Positions 16,262 through 44,512 are shown, counted from the stretch's first letter. The stretch: DNA of 64,000 bases from Escherichia coli (GCF_044324785.1 NZ_CP172127.1), one strand, 5' to 3'. Made by a program: numbers and translations. The notes: generated by a model not told the origin, from the letters alone.

Positions 16262-16593
16262 ATATCGATCTGAGTCGTTTTTTCAACAGGATTTGGAAGG
16301 GATGCATTCAAAGACAAACTCTGCTCTTTCTCCTGCGCCTTTTCTGCCTGCTGTCTTTGCAACTGCGCCAGTTGTGTTTCCAGTAGGGTGATTTGCTGCT
16401 GAATCAATTCGGCCTGTTTTTGCTTGTCTTCAGCACTGCCGCTAGTGTCTGCAATCTCTTTAATTTGTTGAGTGAGTTTGATGATTTGCTGACTTATCCG
16501 CGCAATTTGTGAAGCAACATCGCTACCTTCTGATGCCCTGTTACTACTCTGTGTTTGTATGGAAGGAATTGAAGTTGAAGAGATAGTGGCCAT
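16252..16593 (-). CDS. small Gln-rich coiled-coil protein, FlxA-like in character
   Basis: 113 aa, Ser/Thr-rich N-terminus then Q/K/E coiled-coil ([27 protein letters not shown]), C-terminal ...TQIDIYI; 10-bp convergent overlap with yfeR stop; family assignment from memory of FlxA-like proteins, not searched. Confidence 0.5.
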
Positions 16594-16680
16594 TGTTCAG
16601 TCCTCGTCACTGTACGAGGTAATATCGGCAGAAGAACAAGGAACTTGAGAAGAAAAATCAATCTTACAAACCGCATATAG

Positions 16681-28230: not shown

Positions 28231-28448
28231 CTCCTTCCTGTTATATCGGGAGATAACTCTCCCGATAATCTTTTAAATCATACAGTTAATTAAACTTTTC
28301 TTTGTGTCCCCTCACAAGGCCGACCTGCGTCACACTTCCGTACAGCGGGATTAATTCTCCAGTAAATGCATTATTTGTCTGGTAACGGCGATTTGTTTTG
28401 CACGTTCATAATTTCACTCGTCAACTATCACTGAACGAGGAATTAACG

Positions 28449-28775
28449 ATGAGTAAGAAACTGATTGCTTTATGTGCGTGCCCGATGGGCCTGGCTCACA
28501 CCTTTATGGCCGCTCAGGCGCTGGAAGAAGCGGCGGTAGAAGCCGGTTATGAAGTGAAAATTGAAACCCAGGGTGCGGACGGCATCCAGAATCGTCTGAC
28601 CGCGCAGGATATCGCCGAAGCGACCATCATCATCCACTCCGTGGCGGTTACGCCGGAAGATAACGAACGTTTCGAATCACGCGACGTTTATGAAATCACT
28701 TTGCAGGACGCAATTAAAAACGCTGCGGGCATCATCAAAGAAATCGAAGAGATGATTGCCTCTGAACAACAGTAA
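28449..28775 (+). CDS. fryB: PTS fructose-like EIIB component
   Basis: 108 aa from ATG 28449 (MSKKLIALCACPMGLAHTFMAAQ..., phosphorylatable Cys); SD gagg upstream. Confidence 0.88.
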   Translation: MSKKLIALCACPMGLAHTFMAAQALEEAAVEAGYEVKIETQGADGIQNRLTAQDIAEATIIIHSVAVTPEDNERFESRDVYEITLQDAIKNAAGIIKEIEEMIASEQQ

Positions 28776-28796
28776 TATTCGACAGGGATAATTGTT

Positions 28797-30044
28797 ATGG
28801 CCATTAAAAAACGCAGTGCAACCGTTGTGCCTGGCGCATCCGGTGCGGCAGCGGCAGTTAAGAATCCGCAGGCCTCTAAAAGCAGCTTCTGGGGTGAACT
28901 CTCGCAGCATGTGATGTCAGGGATTTCACGCATGGTGCCGACCTTAATTATGGGCGGTGTGATCCTCGCTTTCAGCCAGCTGATTGCTTATAGCTGGCTT
29001 AAAATTCCTGCTGATATCGGCATCATGGATGCTCTTAATAGCGGGAAATTCTCCGGTTTCGACCTCTCCTTACTGAAATTTGCCTGGTTGTCGCAGTCCT
29101 TCGGCGGCGTGTTGTTTGGTTTTGCCATTCCGATGTTTGCTGCATTTGTGGCGAACTCTATCGGTGGCAAACTGGCGTTCCCGGCTGGTTTTATCGGCGG
29201 GTTGATGTCTACCCAGCCGACGCAACTGCTGAACTTCGATCCCAGCACTATGCAATGGGCGACCTCTTCGCCGGTGCCGTCCACCTTCATTGGTGCCCTG
29301 ATTATTTCTATCGTTGCGGGTTACCTTGTGAAGTGGATGAACCAGAAAATCCAGTTACCGGATTTCCTGTTAGCGTTCAAAACCACATTTTTGCTACCGA
29401 TTCTTTCCGCCATTTTTGTCATGCTGGCGATGTACTACGTCATCACCCCCTTTGGTGGCTGGATCAACGGCGGTATCCGTACCGTGCTGACTGCCGCAGG
29501 TGAGAAGGGCGCGCTGATGTACGCGATGGGGATCGCCGCGGCGACAGCAATCGACCTTGGTGGCCCGATCAACAAAGCAGCTGGTTTCGTTGCCTTCAGC
29601 TTTACCACTGACCACGTATTACCGGTTACCGCGCGTTCCATCGCTATTGTTATTCCGCCGATTGGTCTGGGTCTGGCGACCATTATCGACCGCCGTTTAA
29701 CCGGCAAACGTCTGTTCAGTGCTCAGCTTTATCCGCAGGGTAAAACCGCCATGTTCCTGGCGTTTATGGGGATCAGTGAAGGTGCGATTCCGTTTGCGCT
29801 GGAAAGCCCCATTACCGCCATTCCGTCCTATATGGTCGGCGCGATTGTCGGCTCAACCGCCGCTGTCTGGCTGGGCGCAGTGCAATGGTTCCCGGAGTCC
29901 GCTATCTGGGCATGGCCGCTGGTCACTAACCTCGGCGTCTACATGGCGGGGATCGCGCTGGGGGCAGTCATTACTGCGCTGATGGTGGTGTTCCTGCGTC
30001 TGATGATGTTCCGTAAAGGCAAATTGTTAATCGATAGCCTGTAA
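28797..30044 (+). CDS. fryC: PTS fructose-like EIIC permease
   Basis: 415 aa polytopic membrane protein immediately after fryB. Confidence 0.9.
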
Positions 30045-30058
30045 GAAGGAAAATCCAG

Positions 30059-31144
30059 ATGACATTACTCGCTTCGCTGCGTGACTGGCTTAAGGCGCAA
30101 CAACTGGATGCGGTGCTTCTCTCCTCACGGCAGAACAAACAGCCGCATCTGGGGATCTCCACCGGATCAGGCTATGTGGTGATTAGCCGTGAAAGTGCGC
30201 ACATTCTGGTGGACTCGCGCTATTACGCGGATGTCGAAGCCCGCACGCAAGGTTACCAGCTACATTTGCTTGACGCGACACACACGCTTGCAACCATCGT
30301 CAATAAAATCATTGCCGATGAGCAGTTGCAAACGCTCGGTTTTGAAGGCCAGCAGGTAAATTGGGAAACCGCGCACCGCTGGCAGTCTGAACTCAATGCG
30401 AAACTGGTAAGCGCCACGCCGGATGTGCTGCGGCAAATCAAAACGCCAGAGGAGGTGGAGAAAATCCGCCTCGCCTGTGGGATTGCCGATCGCGGAGCGG
30501 AGCATATTCGCCGCTTTATTCAGGCGGGGATGAGCGAATGCGAGATTGCTGCTGAACTGGAGTGGTTTATGCGCCAGCAGGGCGCAGAAAAAGCCTCTTT
30601 CGATACCATTGTCGCCAGTGGCTGGCGTGGGGCGCTGCCGCACGGCAAAGCCAGCGACAAGATTGTTGCAGCGGGCGAGTTTGTCACTCTCGATTTCGGT
30701 GCGCTGTATCAGGGCTACTGCTCTGATATGACGCGTACCTTGCTGGTGAATGGCGAAGGGGTGAGCGCCGAATCTCACCCGCTGTTTGACGTCTATCAGA
30801 TTGTCCTGCAGGCACAGCTCGCAGCAATCTCCGCGATTCGCCCCGGCGTGCGCTGCCAGCAGGTTGACGATGCCGCGCGCCGGGTCATTACAGAAGCAGG
30901 TTATGGCGACTATTTCGGTCATAACACCGGTCACGCTATCGGCATTGAAGTCCATGAAGATCCGCGTTTTTCACCGCGGGACACCACGACGCTACAGCCA
31001 GGCATGTTGCTGACCGTGGAGCCGGGGATTTATTTGCCAGGGCAAGGGGGCGTGCGCATCGAAGATGTTGTGCTGGTCACCCCGCAAGGCGTAGAAGTGC
31101 TCTACGCCATGCCGAAAACAGTGTTGCTCACGGGAGAGGCATAA
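30059..31144 (+). CDS. ypdF: Xaa-Pro aminopeptidase (M24 family)
   Basis: 361 aa; M24 metal-binding residues ([13 protein letters not shown]); stop overlaps ypdE start. Confidence 0.88.
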
Positions 31145-32181
31145 TGGATTTATCGCTATTAAAAGCGTTGAGCGAGGCAGATGCGATCGCCTCCTCGGAA
31201 CAGGAAGTACGGCAGATCCTGCTGGAAGAAGCGGATCTCCTGCAAAAAGAAGTGCGATTTGACGGCCTGGGATCGGTGCTGATCCGCCTCAATGAATCGA
31301 CAGGTCCGAAGGTGATGATCTGTGCGCATATGGATGAAGTGGGATTTATGGTGCGCAGCATCTCCCGCGAAGGGGCGATTGATGTGCTGCCAGTTGGCAA
31401 CGTGCGCATGGCTGCCCGCCAGCTGCAGCCGGTGCGTATCACCACCCGTGAAGAGTGCAAAATTCCCGGTCTGCTTGATGGCGACCGGCAGGGAAATGAC
31501 GTCAGCACCATGCGCGTGGACATTGGCGCTCGCTCGTATGACGAAGTGATGCAGGCGGGAATTCGTCCAGGCGATCGCGTCACCTTTGATACCACTTTTC
31601 AGGTTCTCCCTCACCAGCGGGTAATGGGGAAAGCGTTTGATGATCGCCTCGGTTGCTACCTGCTGGTGACGTTACTGCGCGAACTACACAGCGCCGAACT
31701 GCCTGCGGAAGTGTGGCTGGTGGCCACCTCCAGCGAAGAGGTGGGATTACGCGGCGGGCAAACCGCTACCCGTGCGGTTTCACCGGACGTTGCGATTGTG
31801 CTGGATACCGCCTGCTGGGCGAAAAACTTTGATTATGGCGCGGCTAACCATCGCCAGATTGGTAACGGGCCGATGCTGGTATTAAGCGACAAGTCGCTGA
31901 TTGCGCCGCCAAAACTTACCGCGTGGATTGAAACCGTGGCGGCAGAAATTGGCGTACCGTTGCAGGCGGATATGTTCAGCAACGGCGGCACAGATGGCGG
32001 AGCGGTGCATTTAACCGGCACCGGCGTGCCCACGGTGGTGATGGGGCCAGCGACGCGCCACGGACATTGTGCGGCATCGATTGCCGATTGCCGCGACATT
32101 TTGCAGATGCAGCAACTTTTATCTGCCCTTATTCAACGTCTTACCCGTGAGACGGTTGTTCAACTGACGGATTTCAGATGA
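31144..32181 (+). CDS. ypdE: M42-family aminopeptidase
   Basis: 345 aa, FrvX/M42 glutamyl aminopeptidase-like. Confidence 0.88.
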
Positions 32182-32205
32182 TCTCCTGATTAACCCGGAG
32201 CGGTT

Positions 32206-34701
32206 ATGTTAACGATTCAATTTCTCTGTCCTTTGCCTAACGGTATTCATGCTCGTCCGGCGTGGGAACTTAAAGAACAGTGCAGCCAGTGGCAAAGCGA
32301 AATCACTTTTATTAACCATCGCCAGAACGCAAAGGCCGATGCGAAAAGTTCGCTGGCGCTGATTGGCACCGGCACTTTATTTAATGACAGTTGCAGCCTG
32401 AACATCAGCGGCAGCGATGAAGAACAGGCGCGGCGCGTGCTGGAAGAGTACATCCAGGTGCGCTTTATCGACAGCGACAGCATTCAGCCGACGCAGGCAG
32501 AACTGACGGCGCATCCGCTACCGCGTTCATTAAGCCGTCTGAATCCTGATTTACTGTACGGCAATGTGCTGGCAAGCGGTGTCGGCGTGGGTACGCTGAC
32601 CCTGTTACAGAGCGACAGCCTCGACAGTTATCGGGCAATCCCGGCCAGTGCGCAAGACTCCACCCGGCTGGAGCACAGCCTGGCAACGCTTGCCGAGCAA
32701 CTGAACCAGCAACTGCGCGAGCGTGACGGCGAAAGCAAAACTATCCTCAGCGCCCATTTGTCGCTGATCCAGGATGATGAATTTGCAGGCAATATCCGTC
32801 ACCTGATGGCAGAACAGCATCAGGGGCTGGGGGCGGCGATCATCAGCAATATGGAGCAGGTTTGTGCCAAACTTTCTGCTTCTGCCAGCGATTATCTGCG
32901 CGAGCGGGTCAGCGACATTCGCGATATCAGCGAACAGTTACTGCATATCACCTGGCCGGAACTAAAACCGCGCAATAATCTGGTGCTTGAAAAACCGACT
33001 ATTCTGGTGGCTGAAGATTTAACCCCAAGCCAGTTTTTGAGCCTCGATTTACAAAATCTTGCGGGCATGATTCTGGAGAAAACCGGGCGCACCTCGCATA
33101 CCCTGATTCTGGCCCGCGCCTCGGCGATCCCGGTTCTTAGCGGCTTGCCGCTGGATGCGATTGCCCGTTATGCCGGGCAACCGGCGGTGCTTGACGCCCA
33201 GTGCGGCGTGCTGGCGATTAACCCGAATGACGCGGTGAGCGGTTATTATCAGGTCGCGCAGACGCTGGCGGATAAACGCCAAAAACAACAGGCGCAGGCC
33301 GCCGCGCAGCTGGCCTATTCCCGTGATAACAAGCGTATTGATATTGCGGCGAATATCGGCACCGCTCTGGAAGCGCCAGGCGCGTTTGCTAACGGCGCGG
33401 AAGGTGTTGGGCTGTTCCGTACCGAAATGCTCTATATGGATCGCGACAGCGCGCCGGACGAGCAGGAGCAATTTGAAGCCTACCAGCAGGTGCTACTGGC
33501 GGCGGGCGACAAGCCGATTATCTTCCGCACGATGGACATCGGCGGCGATAAAAGCATTCCTTATCTGAATATTCCCCAGGAAGAGAACCCGTTCCTCGGC
33601 TATCGCGCGGTACGTATTTACCCGGAATTTGCTGGCCTGTTCCGCACTCAACTGCGGGCCATTTTGCGCGCCGCCAGTTTCGGCAACGCCCAGTTGATGA
33701 TCCCAATGGTTCACAGCCTCGATCAGATCTTATGGGTGAAGGGCGAGATCCAAAAAGCGATCGTTGAGCTTAAGCGCGATGGCCTGCGTCATGCAGAGAT
33801 GATTACGCTGGGTATCATGGTGGAAGTGCCGTCGGTGTGCTACATCATCGACCACTTCTGCGATGAGGTCGATTTCTTCAGTATCGGTTCTAACGATATG
33901 ACCCAGTATCTGTATGCGGTCGATCGTAATAACCCGCGCGTATCGCCGCTGTATAACCCGATTACGCCATCGTTCCTGCGCATGTTGCAGCAAATAGTTA
34001 CCACTGCGCATCAGCGGGGCAAATGGGTAGGCATTTGCGGTGAACTGGGCGGTGAAAGCCGTTATCTGCCGCTACTGCTTGGGCTGGGCCTGGATGAGCT
34101 GAGTATGAGTAGCCCGCGCATTCCGGCGGTGAAAAGCCAGCTTCGTCAACTGGATAGCGAGGCGTGTCGGGAACTGGCACGTCAGGCGTGTGAATGTCGC
34201 AGCGCGCAGGAAATTGAAGCGTTACTCACCGCCTTTACGCCGGAAGAAGACGTTCGCCCGCTGCTGGCGCTGGAGAATATCTTCGTTGATCAGGCCTTTA
34301 GTAATAAAGAGCAGGCGATCCAGTTCCTGTGTGGCAACCTCGGCGTTAACGGGCGCACGGAACATCCGTTTGAGCTGGAAGAGGATGTCTGGCAGCGGGA
34401 AGAGATTGTCACCACCGGCGTTGGTTTTGGCGTGGCGATCCCGCACACCAAATCGCAGTGGATCCGTCATTCCAGTATCAGCATTGCCCGGCTGGCGAAA
34501 CCGGTTGACTGGCAGTCAGAAATGGGCGAAGTCGAACTGGTGATCATGCTGACGCTGGGTGCTAACGAAGGGATGAATCATGTGAAAGTCTTCTCGCAGC
34601 TGGCGCGTAAACTGGTGAATAAAAACTTCCGCCAGTCGTTGTTTGCCGCGCAAGATGCACAAAGTATCCTGACGCTGCTGGAAACAGAATTAACCTTCTG
34701 A
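32206..34701 (+). CDS. fryA: PTS multiphosphoryl transfer protein (HPr-like - enzyme I-like - EIIA-like fusion)
   Basis: 831 aa; N-terminal HPr-like (GIHARPA), central EI-like PEP-utilising domain, C-terminal EIIA(Fru)-like; synonym ypdD. Confidence 0.9.
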   Translation: MLTIQFLCPLPNGIHARPAWELKEQCSQWQSEITFINHRQNAKADAKSSLALIGTGTLFNDSCSLNISGSDEEQARRVLEEYIQVRFIDSDSIQPTQAELTAHPLPRSLSRLNPDLLYGNVLASGVGVGTLTLLQSDSLDSYRAIPASAQDSTRLEHSLATLAEQLNQQLRERDGESKTILSAHLSLIQDDEFAGNIRHLMAEQHQGLGAAIISNMEQVCAKLSASASDYLRERVSDIRDISEQLLHITWPELKPRNNLVLEKPTILVAEDLTPSQFLSLDLQNLAGMILEKTGRTSHTLILARASAIPVLSGLPLDAIARYAGQPAVLDAQCGVLAINPNDAVSGYYQVAQTLADKRQKQQAQAAAQLAYSRDNKRIDIAANIGTALEAPGAFANGAEGVGLFRTEMLYMDRDSAPDEQEQFEAYQQVLLAAGDKPIIFRTMDIGGDKSIPYLNIPQEENPFLGYRAVRIYPEFAGLFRTQLRAILRAASFGNAQLMIPMVHSLDQILWVKGEIQKAIVELKRDGLRHAEMITLGIMVEVPSVCYIIDHFCDEVDFFSIGSNDMTQYLYAVDRNNPRVSPLYNPITPSFLRMLQQIVTTAHQRGKWVGICGELGGESRYLPLLLGLGLDELSMSSPRIPAVKSQLRQLDSEACRELARQACECRSAQEIEALLTAFTPEEDVRPLLALENIFVDQAFSNKEQAIQFLCGNLGVNGRTEHPFELEEDVWQREEIVTTGVGFGVAIPHTKSQWIRHSSISIARLAKPVDWQSEMGEVELVIMLTLGANEGMNHVKVFSQLARKLVNKNFRQSLFAAQDAQSILTLLETELTF

Positions 34702-34703
34702 CG

Positions 34704-35561
34704 TTAGCCCTGAAAACGGGCGCTGTACTCTCCCGGCGTCAGACCAAACTGACGCCGGAAAACGCGACAAAAATAGTCGCTATCCGGAAAACCGCAACGC
34801 TGCGCCACTTCATGAATCGACAGATGATATTTCTGCAAAATCATCCTCGCCTTCGCCATTCGCACCCAACGCACATATTCGATAAAACGCATTGTTCCAT
34901 GCTGCGCAAACAGTTTTGACAGATGATTGGGCGTGATATTAAAAAACAGCGCCACGCTCTCACGGGTGAGCGGCTGGGCATAATTATCCTGAACCCAGTT
35001 ACAAATGCTGTGATAAAGAAAATCGCCGCGCGGCTGCGAATTGCCCGGCGGCATATTCACCACGTTACGGCAAAGATGCAGCAAACTTAACACCAGCGGC
35101 TGAATGATATTCTGCTCCAGCGGCGAACGGCTAAGATGGGTGAGTGCAGTAAGCATTGCTTCACCTTCGCCGCGTTGCAGGCTGGGAAGTTGGATCTGGC
35201 GAGCAGGATGCAACAACGACGTGGTGCGGCTATCGTAAAACGATAACCCAAGCCAGGTCGGTGCGAACACCAGGCTTAACAGCATCACCGGTTTGTTGTT
35301 GATCGGTAAATTAGCCGCGCGCGCTGGAATAAACAGCATTTCTCCTTCAACCATACGTTGCTGCTTTGCTTCCAGCAGATTGCCGTATTCGCCGCGCAGC
35401 ACGATATCCAGACGGGGAAAATCAATACATAAACTGCCCACCGGTAACGAGGCAGGCTGGCTGGCAAACCAGACGCGCCCCAGTAGTTGCGGGTTAAGCA
35501 CCAGGCCGCTGAACAGATCGGCGAAAAATTGTTGATCGGCGGGCAAGCCTGGTGCTTTCAT
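34704..35561 (-). CDS. ypdC: AraC-family transcriptional regulator
   Basis: 285 aa with C-terminal AraC-type HTH. Confidence 0.85.
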   Translation of the reverse strand: MKAPGLPADQQFFADLFSGLVLNPQLLGRVWFASQPASLPVGSLCIDFPRLDIVLRGEYGNLLEAKQQRMVEGEMLFIPARAANLPINNKPVMLLSLVFAPTWLGLSFYDSRTTSLLHPARQIQLPSLQRGEGEAMLTALTHLSRSPLEQNIIQPLVLSLLHLCRNVVNMPPGNSQPRGDFLYHSICNWVQDNYAQPLTRESVALFFNITPNHLSKLFAQHGTMRFIEYVRWVRMAKARMILQKYHLSIHEVAQRCGFPDSDYFCRVFRRQFGLTPGEYSARFQG

Positions 35562-35573
35562 GAAAGTTCCCGA

Positions 35574-36308
35574 TTAAAGATGCATTAACTGGCGGAATTC
35601 TTTAACTTTGCTGCGGCTGACCGGCACTTCAAAATCCAGATCTTTCAGCCGCAGAATATAGGTGTTATTAAACCACGGTTCGATCTCGCGGATTTTGTTC
35701 AGATTGACACAAAATGAGCGATGGCAGCGGAAAAAATGCGACGGCGGCAGCTTGCTGCAAAACTCGGTAATGTTCATCGGCATTACGTAGGATTCACGCC
35801 GCGTATAGACAAAGGTCATTTTCTCGTGCGCTTCGGCGTAATAGATATCGTTAATTGGCGTGACAATGATTCGCTCATCTTTCACCAGATTAATGGTGTC
35901 ATTCTCACGCGTTACCGTCGCGGCAGGCGTACTGCTGGTCTGCTGTTGTTGCCAGGCTGCTTCCAGTTTTTGCAGCATCCCGGTAATGCGTGACTCCTGA
36001 TACGGTTTGAGAATGTAGTCAAACGCTTCCAGTTCAAATGCTTCTACCGCATGTTCTTTCCACGCGGTGATGAACACAATAAACGGTTTATGGGCGAACT
36101 GGCTGATGTTTTGCGCCAGCAACACGCCATCCAGCGACGGAATATTGATATCCAGAAAAATGGCGTCGACGCGGTTATGCTGCAAAAACTTCAACACGTC
36201 CAGACCGTCGTCAAAGGTGCCGACAATCTCCATCTGGCTGTGCTCTTTAATTAGCCAGCTCAGTTCCTGTTGTGCCAGGAATTCGTCTTCAACAATGATG
36301 ACTTTCAC
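35574..36308 (-). CDS. ypdB: LytTR-family response regulator
   Basis: Receiver domain plus LytTR DNA-binding domain; GTG start at 36308 (VKVIIVEDE...) gives 244 aa and sits 14 nt after ypdA stop; ATG at 36326 overlaps ypdA. Confidence 0.85.
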   Translation of the reverse strand: MKVIIVEDEFLAQQELSWLIKEHSQMEIVGTFDDGLDVLKFLQHNRVDAIFLDINIPSLDGVLLAQNISQFAHKPFIVFITAWKEHAVEAFELEAFDYILKPYQESRITGMLQKLEAAWQQQQTSSTPAATVTRENDTINLVKDERIIVTPINDIYYAEAHEKMTFVYTRRESYVMPMNITEFCSKLPPSHFFRCHRSFCVNLNKIREIEPWFNNTYILRLKDLDFEVPVSRSKVKEFRQLMHL

Positions 36309-36322
36309 AATATCACTCCGGC

Positions 36323-38020
36323 TCAAAGCAATAACGTAGCCTGTGAGGCGACTGGGGTGCGTTGGTTAGGAATGTAAAACGCAATTTCCGTTCCTGGTTC
36401 CAGGCGGCGGATATGCAGCCCCTCGCCATACAATAACTTCACGCGATGATGGACATTCAGCAGGCCAATTTTATTGCCCGGCATTTCGTTCGCTTCGACC
36501 CGCTCAATGACTTTTGGATCGATGCCGTGCCCGGTATCTCGCACCGCAATGCGTACCCGATTACCGCACTCTGCAACGCTGATGGTGACAACGCCTTTAC
36601 CTTTGCAAGGCTGAATACCGTGGACAATGGCATTCTCCACCAACGGCTGGATCAGCAGGCTGGGAATGCAGCAATTCACCTCTTCATCAATATCATAGAT
36701 AACCGTCAGCTTGTCGCCAAAGCGGGCCTGCTCAATGGCAATATAGTCTTTAATTTGATACAGCTCTTTTTTGATATCGATTTGCTCATCATCTTTTAAT
36801 TCAATGTTATAGCGCAGATAACGCGACAGATTAAAGATCAGCTGGCGAGCGGTATCTGGATTCAGACGGATTGACGATGAAATAGCGTTCAGAGCGTTAA
36901 ACAGAAAATGGGGATTAATTTTGCTTTGCAGAGCGCGAAGCTCTGCCTTATTTGCCATTTCACGTAACTGCTCGGCACGCGAAACCTCCAGTTGCGTGGA
37001 GATGATTTGCGACAGACCGACCGCCATTTCCTGTAATGACGAGGTGATCTGATGCGCGTGGCAGTAGTAAATTTTCAGCGTTCCGGTCACAACGCCTTTC
37101 TCCCACAATGGGATCACCAGCATGGAATGAATCTCTGGTGTGCGGTGGGCTTCATCATTGTTTTTAATGATGATTTTTCCGTAATTCATCGCCTGTCGGG
37201 TAGTCGGACTAATGAAGTCATCGCCATTCTGATAGTTGTGTTCGCCCACGCCGACATAGGCCAGCACATGATCGGTATTAGTAATCGCCACCGCATCGGC
37301 GTGAATATCATCGCGGATAATTTCGCAGACCTTGCGTAATGACTCGCTATTGACATGGCGAAACAGCGGCAGCGTTTTGTTGGCAATATCCAGCGCCAGC
37401 TTGGCCTGCCGCGCGGCGCTGGCCTCTTTTTCGCCCTCAACGCTTTGCACCAGCAGCACAATAAAGCCGATACAGACGCTACCGAGGATCATTGGAATCC
37501 CGATTTTAGAGACGATATCGATCCCCAACGCGGTAGTTGGTGCCCAGACAATCACCAGAATCATGGTCAACGTTTCACACAACATGCCGCCGAGAATACC
37601 GACGCGCCAGCGCTGTGCTTTAGGGATTTTCAGGTTGATCCAGCCCGATATACAACCCGCCAGAATGCTGGTGATAAAGCAGGGGATCGCCGTCACGCCG
37701 CCGATATCAATTAAATAACGGTGAATACCTGCGATCACGCCGGTAATAATGCCTACCCACGGGCCAAACAGTATCCCGCCTGACATCACCGCGATAATAC
37801 GTACGTTCACCAGCGAGCCTTCTACGGGAACGCCGGACCAGGTGCTGAACAGGGCGAACAGCGAGAAAATGGCGGTAACGGCGAGCAGCTCTTTCGGTGA
37901 GTGTGCCGACTTGTGCAACAGTTCGCGAAACAGGCGGATACGGATGAGAAAGAACAGGCAGATAAGCATTAACGCTGCCCGATCGAAGACCGCCAGCAGC
38001 ATGTTGAATATTTCGTGCAC
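36323..38020 (-). CDS. ypdA: LytS/5TM-Lyt-type sensor histidine kinase
   Basis: 565 aa; N-terminal multi-TM sensor, GAF-like region, His-kinase core. Confidence 0.9.
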
Positions 38021-43455: not shown

Positions 43456-43473
43456 GGCTTTGTTGAATAAATC
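43456..43473. repeat. IS903 left terminal inverted repeat
   Basis: ggctttgttgaataaatc. Confidence 0.9.
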
Positions 43474-43511
43474 AGATTTCGGGTAAGTCTCCCCCGTAGC
43501 GGGTTGTGTTT

Positions 43512-44480
43512 TCAGGCAATACGCACGCTTTCAGGCATACCTGCTTTCGTCATTTTGTTCAGCGCTCGTACCAGGGCCATAGCCTCCGCAACCTGACCAT
43601 CGTAGTCACGCAGCGTCAGTGAACCCCCGAACAGCTGTTTTACCCGGTACATCGCCGTTTCCGCTATCGAGCGACGGTTGTAATCTGTTGTCCATTTCCA
43701 CCGCGCATTACTCCCGGTCATTCGCTGATTAGCCACTGCACGGTTACGGTCTGCATATTCACCGGGCCAGTAACCCGCACCTTTTCGGGGAGGGATAAGC
43801 GCGCTGATTTTCTTACGCCGCAGTTCATCGTGACATAGCCGGGTATCGTAAGCGCCATCGGCGGCGGCTGACCTGATTTTCCGGTGGGTTTGCCGGATTA
43901 ACCCGGGGAAGGCCTCTGAGTCCGTAACGTTGTTCAGCGACAGGTCAGCGCAGATGATTTCATGTGTTTTACTGTCAACGGCGAGATGCAGCTTACGCCA
44001 GATACGGCGGCGTTCCTGGCCATGCTTTTTGACTTTCCACTCGCCTTCACCGAAGACCTTCAGCCCGGTGGAATCAATTACCAGGTGTGCGATTTCACCC
44101 CGGGTGGGCGTTTTGAAACTGACATTAACCGACTTTGCCCGCCTGCTGACACAGCTGTAATCCGGGCAGCGTAGCGGAACGTTCATCAGAGAAAAAATGG
44201 AATCAATAAAGCCCTGCGCAGCCCGCAGGGTCAGCCTGAATACGCGTTTAATGACCAGCACAGTAGTGATGGCAAGGTCAGAATAGCGCTGAGGTCTGCC
44301 TCGTGAAGAAGGTGTTGCTGACTCATACCAGGCCTGAATAGCTTCATCATCCAGCCAGAAAGTTATGGAGCCACGGTTGATGAGGGCTTTATTGTAGGTG
44401 GGCCAGTTGGTGATTTTGAACTTTTGCTTTGCCACGGAACGGTCTGCGTTGTCGGGAAGATACGTGATCTGATCCTTCAA
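43512..44480 (-). CDS. IS903-group transposase (DDE)
   Basis: 322-aa ORF filling the IS; IS5/IS903-type transposase sequence. Confidence 0.9.
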
Positions 44481-44494
44481 CTCAGCAAAAGTTC

Positions 44495-44512
44495 GATTTA
44501 TTCAACAAAGCC
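44495..44512. repeat. IS903 right terminal inverted repeat
   Basis: gatttattcaacaaagcc, reverse complement of the left IR. Confidence 0.9.

What the first reader, a model, noticed from the sequence alone, without database searches (positions are those of the whole stretch)
28449..38020. Cryptic PTS operon with embedded aminopeptidases next to a LytS/LytTR two-component system
fryB (EIIB), fryC (EIIC), ypdF (M24 Xaa-Pro aminopeptidase), ypdE (M42 aminopeptidase) and fryA (HPr-EI-EIIA fusion) sit on one strand with overlapping or closely spaced junctions, such as the TAATG overlap of ypdF and ypdE. Immediately downstream on the opposite strand lie ypdC (AraC-type), ypdB (LytTR regulator) and ypdA (LytS-type kinase). 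Pairing a sugar-type PTS with two peptidases is unusual and suggests a glycosylated peptide or amino-sugar-peptide substrate. The genes are intact here, but the physiological substrate is to my knowledge still not firmly established.
Basis: partly seen in the sequence, partly recalled or inferred. Interest (0 to 1): 0.35.

Follow-up and report, generated by a model that had tools for sequence, protein, structure and literature searches.

The report
Orphan sugar transporter with peptide-trimming enzymes
This is the well-known but functionally unsolved E. coli fryBC-ypdFE-fryA operon, and comparison with other bacteria shows that its transporter-plus-two-peptidases core is an ancient conserved unit that elsewhere ends with a bond-breaking lyase, which points to a sugar-linked small peptide as the missing substrate.

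Summary
Window 28449-38020 holds intact fryB, fryC, ypdF, ypdE and fryA on the + strand and ypdC, ypdB and ypdA on the - strand, with the stated domains and the TAATG overlap. The locus is core E. coli (5423 of 5426 complete genomes), already annotated, and under purifying selection (dN/dS 0.01-0.16).

The comparison with other genomes adds four points.
- EIIB-EIIC-M24-M42 keeps the same order from Enterobacterales to gut Clostridia.
- In the Clostridia the module is followed by a MalY/PatB-type PLP beta-lyase.
- Closely related EIICs carry either that lyase (25 loci) or a GH38 alpha-mannosidase (14 loci), never both.
- The same M42 + M24 + lyase trio also accompanies a different PTS family (lactose/cellobiose type).

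This supports a sugar-amino-acid or sugar-peptide conjugate as substrate. E. coli has lost the lyase, replaced the PRD-type regulator with the AraC-type YpdC, and fused HPr-EI-EIIA into FryA.

ypdC travels with the fry genes (30 of 32 loci). ypdAB does so in only 12 of 32 and is the known pyruvate sensor for yhjX, so its adjacency is lineage-specific. A conserved activator-type promoter with a direct repeat lies upstream of fryB.

The locus is already known. The substrate remains unproven.

The parts
28330..28412 (+). Conserved fryB promoter/operator region. It contains TCACACTTCC (28330-28339), the direct repeat TCCAGTAA (28358-28365) / TCTGGTAA (28378-28385) spaced 20 bp start to start, and a -10 hexamer CATAAT (28407-28412). 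There is no good -35, which fits an activator-dependent promoter. This is the candidate YpdC binding site.
   Evidence: These blocks are conserved in an alignment of 19 Enterobacterales upstream regions that have different upstream genes. The exact repeat occurs once in the 64 kb window. In 11 loci it occurs only upstream of fryB. The sigma-70 consensus scan did not call this promoter. Binding by YpdC is inferred, not shown.
28449..28775 (+). fryB, PTS EIIB (108 aa) with active-site Cys11 in the CPMGLAHT motif.
   Evidence: It is 70-80% identical to the Clostridial orthologues.
28797..30044 (+). fryC, PTS EIIC membrane permease (415 aa), fructose-like family.
   Evidence: TIGR01427, 159 bits against a cutoff of 157.55. 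It was the query of the genome scan. NJ tree.
30059..31144 (+). ypdF, M24B Xaa-Pro-type aminopeptidase (361 aa). The five metal ligands D212, D223, H292, E321 and E335 are intact.
   Evidence: (PDB 5CNX, aminopeptidase YpdF). It is the fastest-evolving gene of the operon (dN/dS 0.11-0.16).
31144..32181 (+). ypdE, M42 aminopeptidase (345 aa). Its start codon overlaps the ypdF stop (TAATG). The seven metal and catalytic residues are intact.
   Evidence: (PDB 1YLO).
32206..34701 (+). fryA, a fused HPr-EI-EIIA phosphoryl relay (831 aa). HPr His15, the EI TSH histidine, the GICGE cysteine and the EIIA AIPH histidine (His747) are present.
   Evidence: The fusion is specific to Enterobacterales. Firmicute relatives have a stand-alone EIIA upstream of EIIB.
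34704..35561 (-). ypdC, an AraC-family regulator (285 aa) with a cupin-like N-terminal domain. It is the probable dedicated regulator of the fry operon.
   Evidence: AlphaFold model with pLDDT 86.5, with fold matches to full-length Rns/CsvR/ToxT and to the RhaR regulatory domain. It is adjacent to fryA in 30 of 32 loci.
35574..36308 (-). ypdB, a LytTR response regulator. It is a neighbour and not part of the conserved module.
   Evidence: It is present beside fry in only 12 of 32 Enterobacterales loci. Its known target is yhjX (PMC4847170, PMC5552118).
36323..38020 (-). ypdA, a LytS-type histidine kinase (5TMR-LYT, GAF, His_kinase, HATPase). It is a neighbour and not part of the conserved module.
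   Evidence: Same distribution as ypdB.

Best explanation
fryB-fryC-ypdF-ypdE-fryA is one catabolic operon.

Proposed pathway:
1. FryA (HPr-EI-EIIA) passes phosphate from PEP to FryB.
2. FryC imports a small sugar-amino-acid or sugar-peptide conjugate and phosphorylates its sugar. The conjugate is most plausibly a hexosyl (perhaps mannosyl) Ser/Thr/Cys residue flanked by one or two residues, with Pro a likely neighbour.
3. In the cytoplasm YpdE (broad-specificity aminopeptidase) and YpdF (Xaa-Pro peptidase) trim the flanking residues.
4. In the ancestral form of the pathway, still found in Clostridia and in one Enterobacterales genome, a MalY/PatB-type PLP beta-lyase then eliminates the sugar phosphate from the exposed amino acid. 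The products would be sugar-6-P, pyruvate (or 2-oxobutyrate) and ammonia.

E. coli has lost that last gene, so the final step is missing or is supplied in trans (its MalY is the obvious candidate).

YpdC, an AraC-type activator, most likely switches the operon on at a conserved direct repeat upstream of fryB. YpdAB next door is the separate, already characterised pyruvate-sensing system, and its adjacency is a lineage-specific accident.

Shown here: gene content, intactness, synteny, co-occurrence, purifying selection, enzyme family assignments.
Known from the literature: the peptidase activities and YpdAB function.
Inferred: the substrate class, the order of steps, the YpdC role.
For: 1. Operon structure. 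Gaps are 21, 14, -1 and 24 nt, with Shine-Dalgarno-like sequences before ypdF, ypdE and fryA and no internal terminator or promoter above chance. The genes are listed as one unit, b2387-b2383, in PMC2731931.

2. Synteny.
- All five genes are in the same order in 31 of 37 Enterobacterales-type loci.
- EIIB-EIIC-M24-M42 is in the same order in 16 Firmicute loci, with FryC 56-67% and FryB 70-80% identical.

3. Lyase.
- Of 44 loci of non-Enterobacteriaceae type (40 from Firmicutes and Fusobacteria, 4 Rahnella-type Enterobacterales), 25 carry a PatB/MalY C-S lyase directly after the peptidase gene(s), or directly after EIIC in L068.
- Family assignment: PDB 1D2F MalY, E 2e-97; TIGR04350, 345 bits against a cutoff of 340.
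- The PLP lysine is invariant.
- One Enterobacterales genome (L036) keeps the lyase after fryA. It is 65% identical to E. coli MalY.

4. Lyase and GH38 are alternatives.
- 14 loci have a GH38 alpha-mannosidase, 25 have the lyase, none has both.
- The two kinds interleave in the EIIC tree. The lyase therefore occupies the place of the bond-cleaving glycosidase.
- M42 (16 loci) and a PepV-type M20 dipeptidase (12 loci) are likewise alternatives.

5. A type I mannose-6-P isomerase lies within about 4.5 kb of the EIIC gene in 6 loci, directly after the lyase in 3 of them.

6. A second PTS family. Four of four contexts of lyase homologues show PRD regulator, M42, lactose/cellobiose-type IIA, IIB, IIC, M24, lyase, RDD protein. 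The same map is printed for L. sakei LT-13 in PMC5845896.

7. Selection. dN/dS is 0.01-0.16 against cryptic-clade Escherichia, Citrobacter and Salmonella. The locus is present in 5423 of 5426 E. coli genomes.

8. Regulation. ypdC is adjacent in 30 of 32 loci and ypdAB in 12 of 32. The promoter and direct repeat are conserved. The YpdC model has a cupin-like sensor domain.

9. Biology. UTI89 delta-ypdE is outcompeted in mouse bladder, competitive index 0.30 (PMC8767336). A fryA in-frame deletion improves fitness after prolonged LB culture (PMC5364489).
Against: - No substrate has ever been shown for FryABC. Reviews still list it as 'fructose-like' (PMC10305011).
- E. coli has neither a lyase nor a glycosidase in the locus or elsewhere in the window. 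The proposed pathway cannot finish there as encoded.
- To my knowledge, no PTS of the fructose family is known to carry a glycopeptide.
- YpdE and YpdF cleave ordinary unmodified peptides in vitro (Zheng et al. 2005, cited as ref. 51 of PMC3511314, not readable here). They could be general peptidases.
- The mannose clue rests on 6 of 44 loci and on the GH38 sister group.
- PLP-dependent beta-elimination of an O-glycosyl serine has, to my knowledge, no experimental precedent.
- The YpdC-operator link is co-occurrence only.
- The NJ tree was not bootstrapped, and gene calls in the loci were made with a simple ORF rule.
Confidence: 0.55

Rival explanations
1. FryABC is simply a spare fructose-like or polyol PTS. 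ypdF and ypdE are general housekeeping aminopeptidases that happen to be embedded in the operon (hitch-hiking genes) and have no shared substrate with the transporter.
For: NCBIfam places FryB, FryC and FryA in the fructose-type subfamilies. YpdE and YpdF hydrolyse ordinary peptides in vitro (Zheng et al. 2005, cited in PMC3511314). E. coli encodes no enzyme in the locus that would separate a sugar from an amino acid.
Against: A chance association would not keep EIIB-EIIC-M24-M42 in the same order across phyla. It would not reappear with a different PTS family or in L. sakei. All three E. coli M42 paralogues sit in PTS operons. None of the 44 non-Enterobacteriaceae-type loci shows a consistent sugar-phosphate catabolic enzyme (kinase, aldolase) in the operon.
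Confidence: 0.12
2. The substrate is an aminoacyl- or peptidyl-amino-sugar, meaning an amide between an amino acid and the amine of GlcN or ManN (bacillithiol-like Cys-GlcN-X, for example). The aminopeptidases themselves release the amino-sugar phosphate, and the lyase of the relatives merely degrades the released cysteine or cysteine conjugate.
For: Aminopeptidases cleave aminoacyl amides of many amines. MalY/PatB enzymes are cysteine and cysteine-S-conjugate lyases (PDB names). In this reading E. coli would not need the lyase for carbon release, which explains its loss. The M20 alternative is PepV/Sapep-like and scores on the Cys-Gly-3M3SH dipeptidase model (217 bits, far below its cutoff). 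That echoes the dipeptidase plus PatB thioalcohol pathway.
Against: No amino-sugar catabolic gene (NagA/NagB type) is consistently linked; a NagB-like ORF (judged by eye, not scanned) lies upstream in a few Enterocloster-type loci, next to ABC-transporter genes. The GH38/lyase alternation argues that the lyase, not a peptidase, does the job of the glycosidase. Mannose-6-P isomerase, not an amino-sugar deaminase, is the linked sugar enzyme.
Confidence: 0.15
3. The Fry proteins are a regulatory phosphorelay comparable to PTS-Ntr. It would sense the PEP/pyruvate state and control peptidase activity or gene expression rather than transport anything, and it would be wired to the neighbouring pyruvate sensor YpdAB.
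For: FryA is a self-contained EI-HPr-EIIA protein, separate from ptsHI-crr, which lies in the same window. ypdABC is adjacent and convergent, and YpdAB senses pyruvate (PMC5552118).
Against: A full EIIC permease is conserved and under strong purifying selection (dN/dS 0.025-0.05 against Escherichia, Citrobacter and Salmonella). Firmicute relatives use only a stand-alone EIIA and the general EI/HPr. ypdAB is absent from 20 of 32 fry loci. No YpdB motif is found near fryB. In Serratia and Yersinia ypdAB lies beside yhjX instead.
Confidence: 0.05
4. In E. coli the operon is an evolutionary remnant. After losing the lyase it no longer supports growth on the ancestral substrate and is kept only for a side activity, for example peptide turnover or detoxification of an imported conjugate.
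For: The lyase is missing from all Enterobacteriaceae loci except L036. ypdF evolves fastest. Sporadic damage is seen: ypdE matches over only 46% of its length in Escherichia sp. MOD1-EC7003 (L005) and fryA over only about half in C. amalonaticus (L013). A fryA deletion was advantageous in long LB culture.
Against: All five genes are intact in 31 of 37 loci and have low dN/dS, comparable for fryB and fryC with glk and alaC. The locus is retained in 5423 of 5426 E. coli genomes. A ypdE mutant has an in vivo defect. MalY elsewhere in the chromosome could complete the pathway.
Confidence: 0.13

Closest known systems
MngA/MngB of E. coli: fructose-family PTS for 2-O-alpha-mannosyl-D-glycerate plus a GH38 alpha-mannosidase that cleaves the phosphorylated product (recalled from Sampaio et al. 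2004; not read here)
   Same: Both use a fructose-family PTS. FryB, FryC and FryA-EIIA all score on the MngA model. The nearest non-peptidase relatives of FryC (51-62% identical) are followed by a GH38 mannosidase, which is the MngAB logic. A mannosyl hydroxy-acid is chemically close to a mannosyl-serine.
   Different: The fry locus has no GH38. It has two metallopeptidases instead and, in relatives, a PLP lyase. MngA is a single IIABC protein that depends on the general EI/HPr, whereas Fry has separate IIB and IIC and its own EI-HPr-IIA.
frvABXR and sgcXBCQAER operons of E. coli (orphan PTS operons that each contain an M42 paralogue)
   Same: Each pairs a PTS with an M42 protein inside one operon. 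YpdE is 34% identical to FrvX and 31% to SgcX. None has a known substrate.
   Different: frv and sgc lack an M24 peptidase. The sgc operon has a different PTS architecture (SgcA, SgcB, SgcC) and extra sugar-type enzymes (SgcE epimerase, SgcQ). The frv operon uses FrvR as regulator, annotated only as a putative DNA-binding regulator.
malX-malY of E. coli (glucose-family PTS EIICB plus MalY, a PLP beta C-S lyase and MalT antagonist)
   Same: A PTS permease is paired with a MalY-type lyase. This is the same pairing as in the ancestral fry-type cassette. MalY is 65% identical to the fry-linked lyase of L036 and 37-43% identical to those of Lachnospiraceae. The physiological substrate is unknown here too (PMC5845896).
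   Different: malXY has no peptidases, a different PTS family and a different regulator (MalI). The window itself has no MalY-like gene.
PRD regulator, M42, lactose/cellobiose-type PTS, M24, MalY/PatB, RDD clusters of Firmicutes (L. sakei LT-13 map in PMC5845896; Amedibacterium, Clostridium intestinale and metagenomic contigs here)
   Same: They share the three enzymes M42, M24B (with Creatinase_N) and MalY-type lyase, tightly linked to a three-component PTS.
   Different: The PTS family differs (PF02255 IIA). A PRD/EIIA regulator and an RDD membrane protein are present, and the lyase is present. The gene order puts M42 before the PTS genes.
Staphylococcus hominis thioalcohol pathway (Cys-Gly-3M3SH dipeptidase, then PatB C-S lyase); recalled, supported here only by model and PDB names
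   Same: Both follow the logic of trimming a dipeptide and then beta-eliminating the side-chain substituent with a PatB-family lyase. The M20 alternative in fry-type clusters scores on the Cys-Gly-3M3SH dipeptidase model, and PatB structures are the next PDB matches after MalY.
   Different: Uptake there is by a peptide transporter and not a PTS. The conjugate is a thioether of an alcohol and not a sugar. The scores are far below the equivalog cutoff.
GfrABCD/GfrEF of Salmonella (mannose-family PTS for glucoselysine and fructoselysine plus deglycases); recalled, not checked here
   Same: It is a precedent for a PTS that imports a sugar-amino-acid conjugate and for cytoplasmic enzymes that then separate the sugar phosphate from the amino acid.
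   Different: It uses a different PTS family, a different linkage (an amine-linked glycation product) and SIS-domain deglycases instead of peptidases and a lyase.

Membership tests
PTS enzyme II complex, fructose-type family | EIIB domain with an active-site cysteine | tested here: met
   PF02302, E 1e-19; TIGR00829, 92 bits against a cutoff of 76.85. Cys11 lies in CPMGLAHT.
PTS enzyme II complex, fructose-type family | Integral-membrane EIIC domain of the fructose subfamily | tested here: met
   PF02378. TIGR01427 scores 159 bits against a cutoff of 157.55, only just above it.
PTS enzyme II complex, fructose-type family | EIIA (PTS_EIIA_2) with a phosphorylatable histidine | tested here: met
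   FryA residues 687-826, PF00359, E 5e-32; TIGR00848, 142 bits against a cutoff of 103.5. AIPH motif at residues 744-747 (His747).
PTS enzyme II complex, fructose-type family | PEP-dependent uptake and phosphorylation of a defined substrate | not testable with these tools
   No substrate is reported in the searchable literature.
Multiphosphoryl transfer protein (fused HPr-EI-EIIA, as in FrwA/PtsA) | HPr, complete EI and EIIA domains in one polypeptide, with their catalytic residues | tested here: met
   Domain order is HPr 6-84, EI 119-650, EIIA 687-826. TIGR01417 scores 504 bits. His15, the TSH histidine and the GICGE cysteine are present.
M24B Xaa-Pro peptidase (prolidase / aminopeptidase P type) | Creatinase_N domain plus pita-bread M24 domain, with five metal ligands (D, D, H, E, E) | tested here: met
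   (PDB 5CNX, YpdF). D212, D223, H292, E321 and E335 are present in the window and in 57 of 58 cluster members.
M24B Xaa-Pro peptidase (prolidase / aminopeptidase P type) | Xaa-Pro cleavage activity | not testable with these tools
   Reported for E. coli YpdF by Zheng et al. 2005 (ref. 51 of PMC3511314). That paper is not held in the library.
M42 aminopeptidase (TET-like) | M42 domain with the conserved His, Asp and Glu metal and catalytic residues | tested here: met
   PF05343, E 3e-85; NF007421, 677 bits; PDB 1YLO. Seven residues are invariant in 45 of 45 sequences.
M42 aminopeptidase (TET-like) | Dodecameric tetrahedral assembly | not testable with these tools
   PMC3511314 states that YpdE is dodecameric (unpublished data quoted there).
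AraC/XylS transcription activators | C-terminal double helix-turn-helix and an N-terminal ligand or dimerisation domain | tested here: met
   HTH_18 and HTH_AraC. AlphaFold model with pLDDT 86.5, showing a beta-rich cupin-like N-domain. Foldseek matches to full-length Rns, CsvR and ToxT, and to the RhaR regulatory domain.
AraC/XylS transcription activators | Binding to direct-repeat half-sites that abut the -35 region of the regulated promoter | tested here: inconclusive
   A conserved TCYRGTAA-N12-TCYRGTAA repeat ends about 21 bp before the -10 hexamer. Binding by YpdC has not been shown.
LytS/LytTR pyruvate-responsive two-component system (YpdA/YpdB) | 5TMR-LYT + GAF + His_kinase sensor and receiver + LytTR regulator | tested here: met
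   RefSeq names.
LytS/LytTR pyruvate-responsive two-component system (YpdA/YpdB) | The regulated promoter carries the GGCATTTCAT direct repeat (PMC4847170). The test here is whether fry is a target. | tested here: not met
   There is no repeat in the window. Single near-matches occur at chance frequency and none lies in 28231-28448.
   The order and spacing are the same as in 16 Firmicute loci.
   No MalY-like ORF is found in the window by tblastn. The lyase is present in 25 of the 44 non-Enterobacteriaceae-type loci (all 25 from Firmicutes or Fusobacteria) and in the Enterobacterales locus L036.
   In all Enterobacterales-type loci these are replaced by AraC-type YpdC and by the fused FryA.
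MngA/MngB-type mannoside PTS | GH38 alpha-mannosidase gene adjacent to the PTS genes | tested here: not met
   No GH38 gene is found in any Enterobacterales-type locus. It is present in 14 sister loci.

The most novel reading that the evidence does not exclude
PTS permeases of at least two families, coupled to M24 + M42 (or M20) peptidases and a MalY/PatB lyase, would define an unrecognised, glycosidase-independent route for eating O- (or S-) glycosylated Ser/Thr/Cys peptides. Such peptides are the protease- and glycosidase-resistant stubs of mucins, yeast mannoproteins and other glycoproteins.

In this route the sugar is phosphorylated on entry, the peptide is trimmed, and the sugar phosphate is released by PLP-dependent beta-elimination. 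That reading would also give MalY its long-missing physiological substrate. It would make the E. coli Fry system a lyase-less branch that relies on MalY in trans.
Probability: 0.25. Interest if true: 0.75.

Novelty: already known. Interest (0 to 1): 0.4.

Why it matters
FryABC is one of several orphan PTS systems of E. coli (with Frv, Frw and Sgc) whose substrates have been unknown since the genome was sequenced. YpdE and YpdF have solved structures and in vitro activities but no physiological role.

The cross-phylum cassette found here narrows the search to a specific chemical class. It names the enzyme that probably does the decisive step in relatives. It predicts the regulator and its operator. 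It also links the puzzle to a second old one, the natural substrate of MalY.

If correct, the cassette would describe how gut and urinary-tract bacteria harvest glycopeptide remnants of host or dietary glycoproteins. That would be consistent with the reported bladder fitness defect of a ypdE mutant.

Tried and rejected
- Literature searches for a known Fry substrate or for a described PTS-peptidase-lyase pathway. They found none. Many hits were author names (Fry A/B/C) or yeast media (YPD).
- Zheng et al. 2005 could not be opened.
- The consensus promoter/terminator scan gave only chance-level hits and missed the conserved fryB promoter, which was found by alignment instead.
- My first repeat pattern, with 13 nt spacing, found nothing because I had miscounted. 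It was corrected to 12 nt.
- A YpdB-motif search as a test of YpdAB control of fry was negative.
- The M24-lyase single ORF (P0049) looked like a Rosetta-stone fusion. Its M24 domain stops at profile position 152 of 208, so it is probably a deletion product and I do not count it as evidence.
- Other neighbours of the Firmicute loci (an ABC-type permease, a NagB-like protein, a DeoR-type regulator, a HAD-type phosphatase and a prolyl-tRNA synthetase, all named from their sequences by eye, not by a family scan, plus a PfkB kinase confirmed by Pfam) are not consistent enough to name the sugar.
- GC content of the operon (54-58%, against 48-54% in the flanks) gives no clear sign of recent transfer.
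- The scan's record labelled E. coli (L004) turned out to be only 93.7% identical to the window, as divergent as the cryptic-clade Escherichia records. The high dS values are therefore real and not an error.
- No sequence-level match was found for the YpdC N-terminal domain. The fold was obtained only by modelling.

Full report
**1. What is in the window**

- + strand: fryB 28449-28775 (EIIB), fryC 28797-30044 (EIIC), ypdF 30059-31144 (Creatinase_N + M24), ypdE 31144-32181 (M42), fryA 32206-34701 (HPr, then EI, then EIIA).
- - strand: ypdC 34704-35561 (AraC type), ypdB 35574-36308 (receiver + LytTR), ypdA 36323-38020 (5TMR-LYT, GAF, His_kinase, HATPase).

The junctions are 21, 14, -1 and 24 nt, and the TAATG overlap is real. 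The fryA and ypdC stop codons are convergent and 2 nt apart.

The phosphorylation and metal-binding residues checked are present. YpdF and YpdE are nearly identical to solved structures 5CNX and 1YLO.

Megablast finds the 9.6 kb stretch in 5423 of 5426 complete E. coli genomes. The best match is 98.8% (strain N3) and most of the top-listed matches are 97.6%. RefSeq annotation gives the same names.

**2. State of knowledge**

The searchable literature gives no substrate for FryABC.
[quoted passage not shown] It also reports that an in-frame fryA deletion improved fitness after prolonged LB culture (PMC5364489).
- A 2023 review still lists FryB and FryC as 'fructose-like' (PMC10305011).
- A microarray study lists fryBC-ypdF-ypdE-fryA as one unit with weak Cpx-linked induction (PMC2731931).
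- YpdE and YpdF were characterised as aminopeptidases by Zheng et al. 2005. That paper is cited in PMC3511314, which also notes that E. coli has three M42 proteins and that YpdE is dodecameric. I could not open the primary paper.
- A UTI89 ypdE deletion mutant is outcompeted in mouse bladder, with a competitive index of 0.30 (PMC8767336).
- YpdAB is the lower-affinity pyruvate-responsive system whose target is yhjX (PMC5552118, PMC4847170).

**3. Comparative genomics of the transporter**

A scan of one genome per species with FryC returned 80 loci. I located homologues of all window proteins in them by tblastn. I then clustered all neighbouring ORFs and named the clusters with Pfam, NCBIfam and PDB sequence searches.

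Thirty-seven loci are of the enterobacterial type (Escherichia, Citrobacter, Salmonella arizonae and diarizonae, Kluyvera, Pseudocitrobacter, Superficieibacter, Enterobacter, Lelliottia, Pluralibacter, Huaxiibacter, Hafnia, Serratia and others).
- 31 have all five fry genes in the same order.
- 32 have a full-length fryA.
- Of those 32, 30 have ypdC next to fryA, but only 12 have ypdAB.

ypdC therefore belongs with the fry genes. ypdAB is a lineage-specific neighbour, found beside fry only in Escherichia, Citrobacter and Pseudocitrobacter. This agrees with PMC5552118, which finds YpdAB absent from Salmonella and beside yhjX in Serratia and Yersinia.

**4. The module outside the enterobacteria**

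Forty-four loci come from Clostridia, Erysipelotrichales, Negativicutes, Fusobacteria and Rahnella. FryC is 51-67% identical there and FryB 58-80%. They fall into three architectures, all headed by a PRD/Mga-type regulator with an EIIA domain and a stand-alone EIIA.
- (a) IIA-IIB-IIC-M24-M42, followed by a roughly 395 aa PLP enzyme.
- (b) A PepV/Sapep-type M20 dipeptidase upstream, then IIA-IIB-IIC-M24 and the same PLP enzyme. This is the form in C. difficile, for example.
- (c) IIA-IIB-IIC followed by a GH38 alpha-mannosidase, which is the MngA/MngB logic.

The PLP enzyme is a MalY/PatB-family C-S beta-lyase.
- PDB MalY 1D2F matches at E 2e-97.
- TIGR04350 scores 345 bits against a cutoff of 340.
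- The PLP lysine, Asn173 and Asp201 are invariant.

Counts:

| Feature | Loci (of 44) |
|---|---|
| Lyase | 25 |
| GH38 | 14 |
| Lyase and GH38 together | 0 |
| M24 | 29 (24 of the 25 lyase loci) |
| M42 | 16 |
| M20 | 12 |
| M42 and M20 together | 0 |
| Type I mannose-6-P isomerase within about 4.5 kb of the EIIC gene | 6 (directly after the lyase in 3) |

In a neighbour-joining tree of the EIICs, the enterobacterial clade groups with the Clostridial M24 + M42 + lyase clade (a GH38-linked Hungatella group branches next to that clade). GH38-linked and lyase-linked EIICs interleave (the tree was not bootstrapped).

One Enterobacterales genome (L036) has AraC, IIB, IIC, M24, M42, FryA and then a lyase that is 65% identical to E. 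coli MalY.

The simplest history is that the whole cassette, lyase included, entered Enterobacterales. The PRD regulator and the stand-alone IIA were then replaced by YpdC and the fused FryA. The lyase was later lost in the lineage leading to E. coli.

**5. The enzymes are the constant, the PTS is the variable**

I searched for homologues of a Clostridial fry-linked lyase and looked at four contexts: Amedibacterium intestinale, Clostridium intestinale and two metagenomic contigs, one of them representing 1485 member sequences.

All four show PRD regulator, M42, PTS_IIA of the lactose/cellobiose family (PF02255), IIB, IIC, M24, lyase and an RDD membrane protein. The published map of a strain-specific 8 kb cluster of L. 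sakei LT-13 is the same (PMC5845896).

In E. coli K-12 all three M42 paralogues lie in PTS operons (frvABXR and sgcXBCQAER). MalY lies with the PTS gene malX.

A recurring enzyme trio attached to different sugar-type permeases suggests substrates whose sugar varies while the aglycone chemistry stays fixed. Two exopeptidases, one of them proline-directed, followed by a beta-lyase that needs a free alpha-amino acid with a beta-substituent, fits a glycosylated Ser/Thr/Cys residue inside a very short peptide. The lyase/GH38 alternation says the lyase does the bond-breaking that a glycosidase does in the sister clusters. The GH38 and mannose-6-P isomerase links suggest mannose for the Fry branch, but the evidence for that is thin.

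**6. Is the E. coli operon alive?**

Nei-Gojobori dN/dS against cryptic-clade Escherichia, Citrobacter braakii and Salmonella diarizonae is 0.01-0.16 for every gene. fryB and fryC are comparable with the flanking housekeeping genes glk and alaC. ypdF is the most relaxed, at 0.11-0.16. Together with the retention of the locus across E. coli, this argues for function and not decay.

Occasional damage does occur. ypdE matches over only 46% of its length in L005 and fryA over only about half in L013.

**7. Regulation**

An alignment of the 230 nt upstream of fryB from 19 Enterobacterales, which have different upstream genes, shows conserved blocks:
- TCACACTTCC at 28330-28339;
- a direct repeat TCCAGTAA / TCTGGTAA at 28358-28365 and 28378-28385;
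- a -10 hexamer CATAAT at 28407-28412, with no recognisable -35.

The exact repeat is unique in the window. In 11 loci it is found only upstream of fryB. This is the layout of an AraC-type class II activator site.

A model of YpdC (pLDDT 86.5) has a cupin-like N-terminal domain, a helical linker and two HTH motifs. It matches full-length Rns, CsvR and ToxT, and the RhaR regulatory domain. YpdC as the fry activator is inferred from co-occurrence, not shown.

The YpdB recognition repeat is absent.

**8. Verdict**

The PTS-peptidase coupling and the glyco-peptide idea gain real comparative support. The implied link to the LytS/LytTR system does not, and ypdC should be reassigned to the fry side.
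- The locus itself is already known.
- To my knowledge, and within the searchable literature, the new element is the recognition that it is a lyase-less member of a widespread PTS + M24 + M42/M20 + MalY/PatB cassette. That gives a concrete, testable substrate class and a candidate physiological role for MalY.
- Main weaknesses: there are no experimental data on substrate, the pathway is incomplete in E. coli, and there is no precedent for a fructose-family PTS carrying a glycopeptide or for PLP-dependent elimination of an O-glycosyl serine.

Noticed in passing
window about 5889-8468 (- strand): The general PTS genes crr, ptsI and ptsH lie in the same window, about 20 kb upstream of the fry operon. 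FryA is a fused paralogue of HPr + EI + an EIIA. Coordinates were transferred from the strain N3 annotation with an offset of 4047.
   Followed up: partly
window 43456-44512: A roughly 1.06 kb insertion relative to strain N3 lies between yfdX and frc. It matches an IS5-like IS903B transposase element. Only about 22 of 5426 genomes cover at least 80% of the query spanning this site.
   Followed up: partly
window 16263-16666: A 404 bp segment replaces the 4.4 kb yfeN-xapA-xapB-xapR stretch of strain N3. This xap-less arrangement (yfeR, a FlxA-like gene, then tRNA-Lys/Val) is shared by about 1306 of 5426 E. coli genomes.
   Followed up: partly
window 61000-64000: dsdC is followed directly by tRNA-Arg, yfdC and mlaA. 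The window therefore lacks the ipuAB/upaE genes that follow dsdC in strain N3.
   Followed up: partly
window 34733-34758: A perfect 10 bp hairpin (CCGGCGTCAG-ACCAAA-CTGACGCCGG) lies inside the 3' coding end of ypdC, just past the fryA stop. The 141 nt stretch folds with a z-score of -5.9. No U-tract follows, so it is not a canonical terminator. It encodes the conserved RRQFGLTPGE motif.
   Followed up: partly
L092 1926-17176 (metagenomic scaffold): The whole lactose/cellobiose-type cassette (regulator, M42, IIA, IIB, IIC, M24, lyase, RDD) is tandemly duplicated. A Y1-type (IS200-like) transposase gene lies between the copies.
   Followed up: no
L087 5246-7264 (protein P0049): A single 672 aa ORF joins Creatinase_N, a truncated M24 domain (profile positions 1-152 of 208) and a complete MalY-type lyase. 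It is probably a deletion product and not a functional fusion.
   Followed up: yes
L005 about 12827; L013 about 13411: Sporadic damage to the operon: ypdE matches over only 46% of its length in Escherichia sp. MOD1-EC7003, and fryA over about half its length, with unrelated downstream DNA, in Citrobacter amalonaticus S646.
   Followed up: no
L026: A record labelled Chryseobacterium sp. 18061 carries a typical Enterobacteriaceae fry-ypdC locus (FryC 74% identical, same flanking gene clusters as the Pluralibacter, Enterobacter and Lelliottia loci). This suggests contamination or mislabelling of that assembly.
   Followed up: no
L042, L046, L049 (just downstream of the lyase): In three Enterocloster/Clostridium loci, an ORF that I judged by eye (no family scan) to be a prolyl-tRNA synthetase follows the lyase directly. 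This may be coincidence, or a hint at a proline connection.
   Followed up: no
window 28449-38020 compared with L002-L005: The scan's record labelled E. coli (strain SCPM-O-B-8794, L004) is only 93.7% identical to the window here, like the cryptic-clade Escherichia records. Mainstream E. coli genomes are 97.6-98.8% identical.
   Followed up: partly
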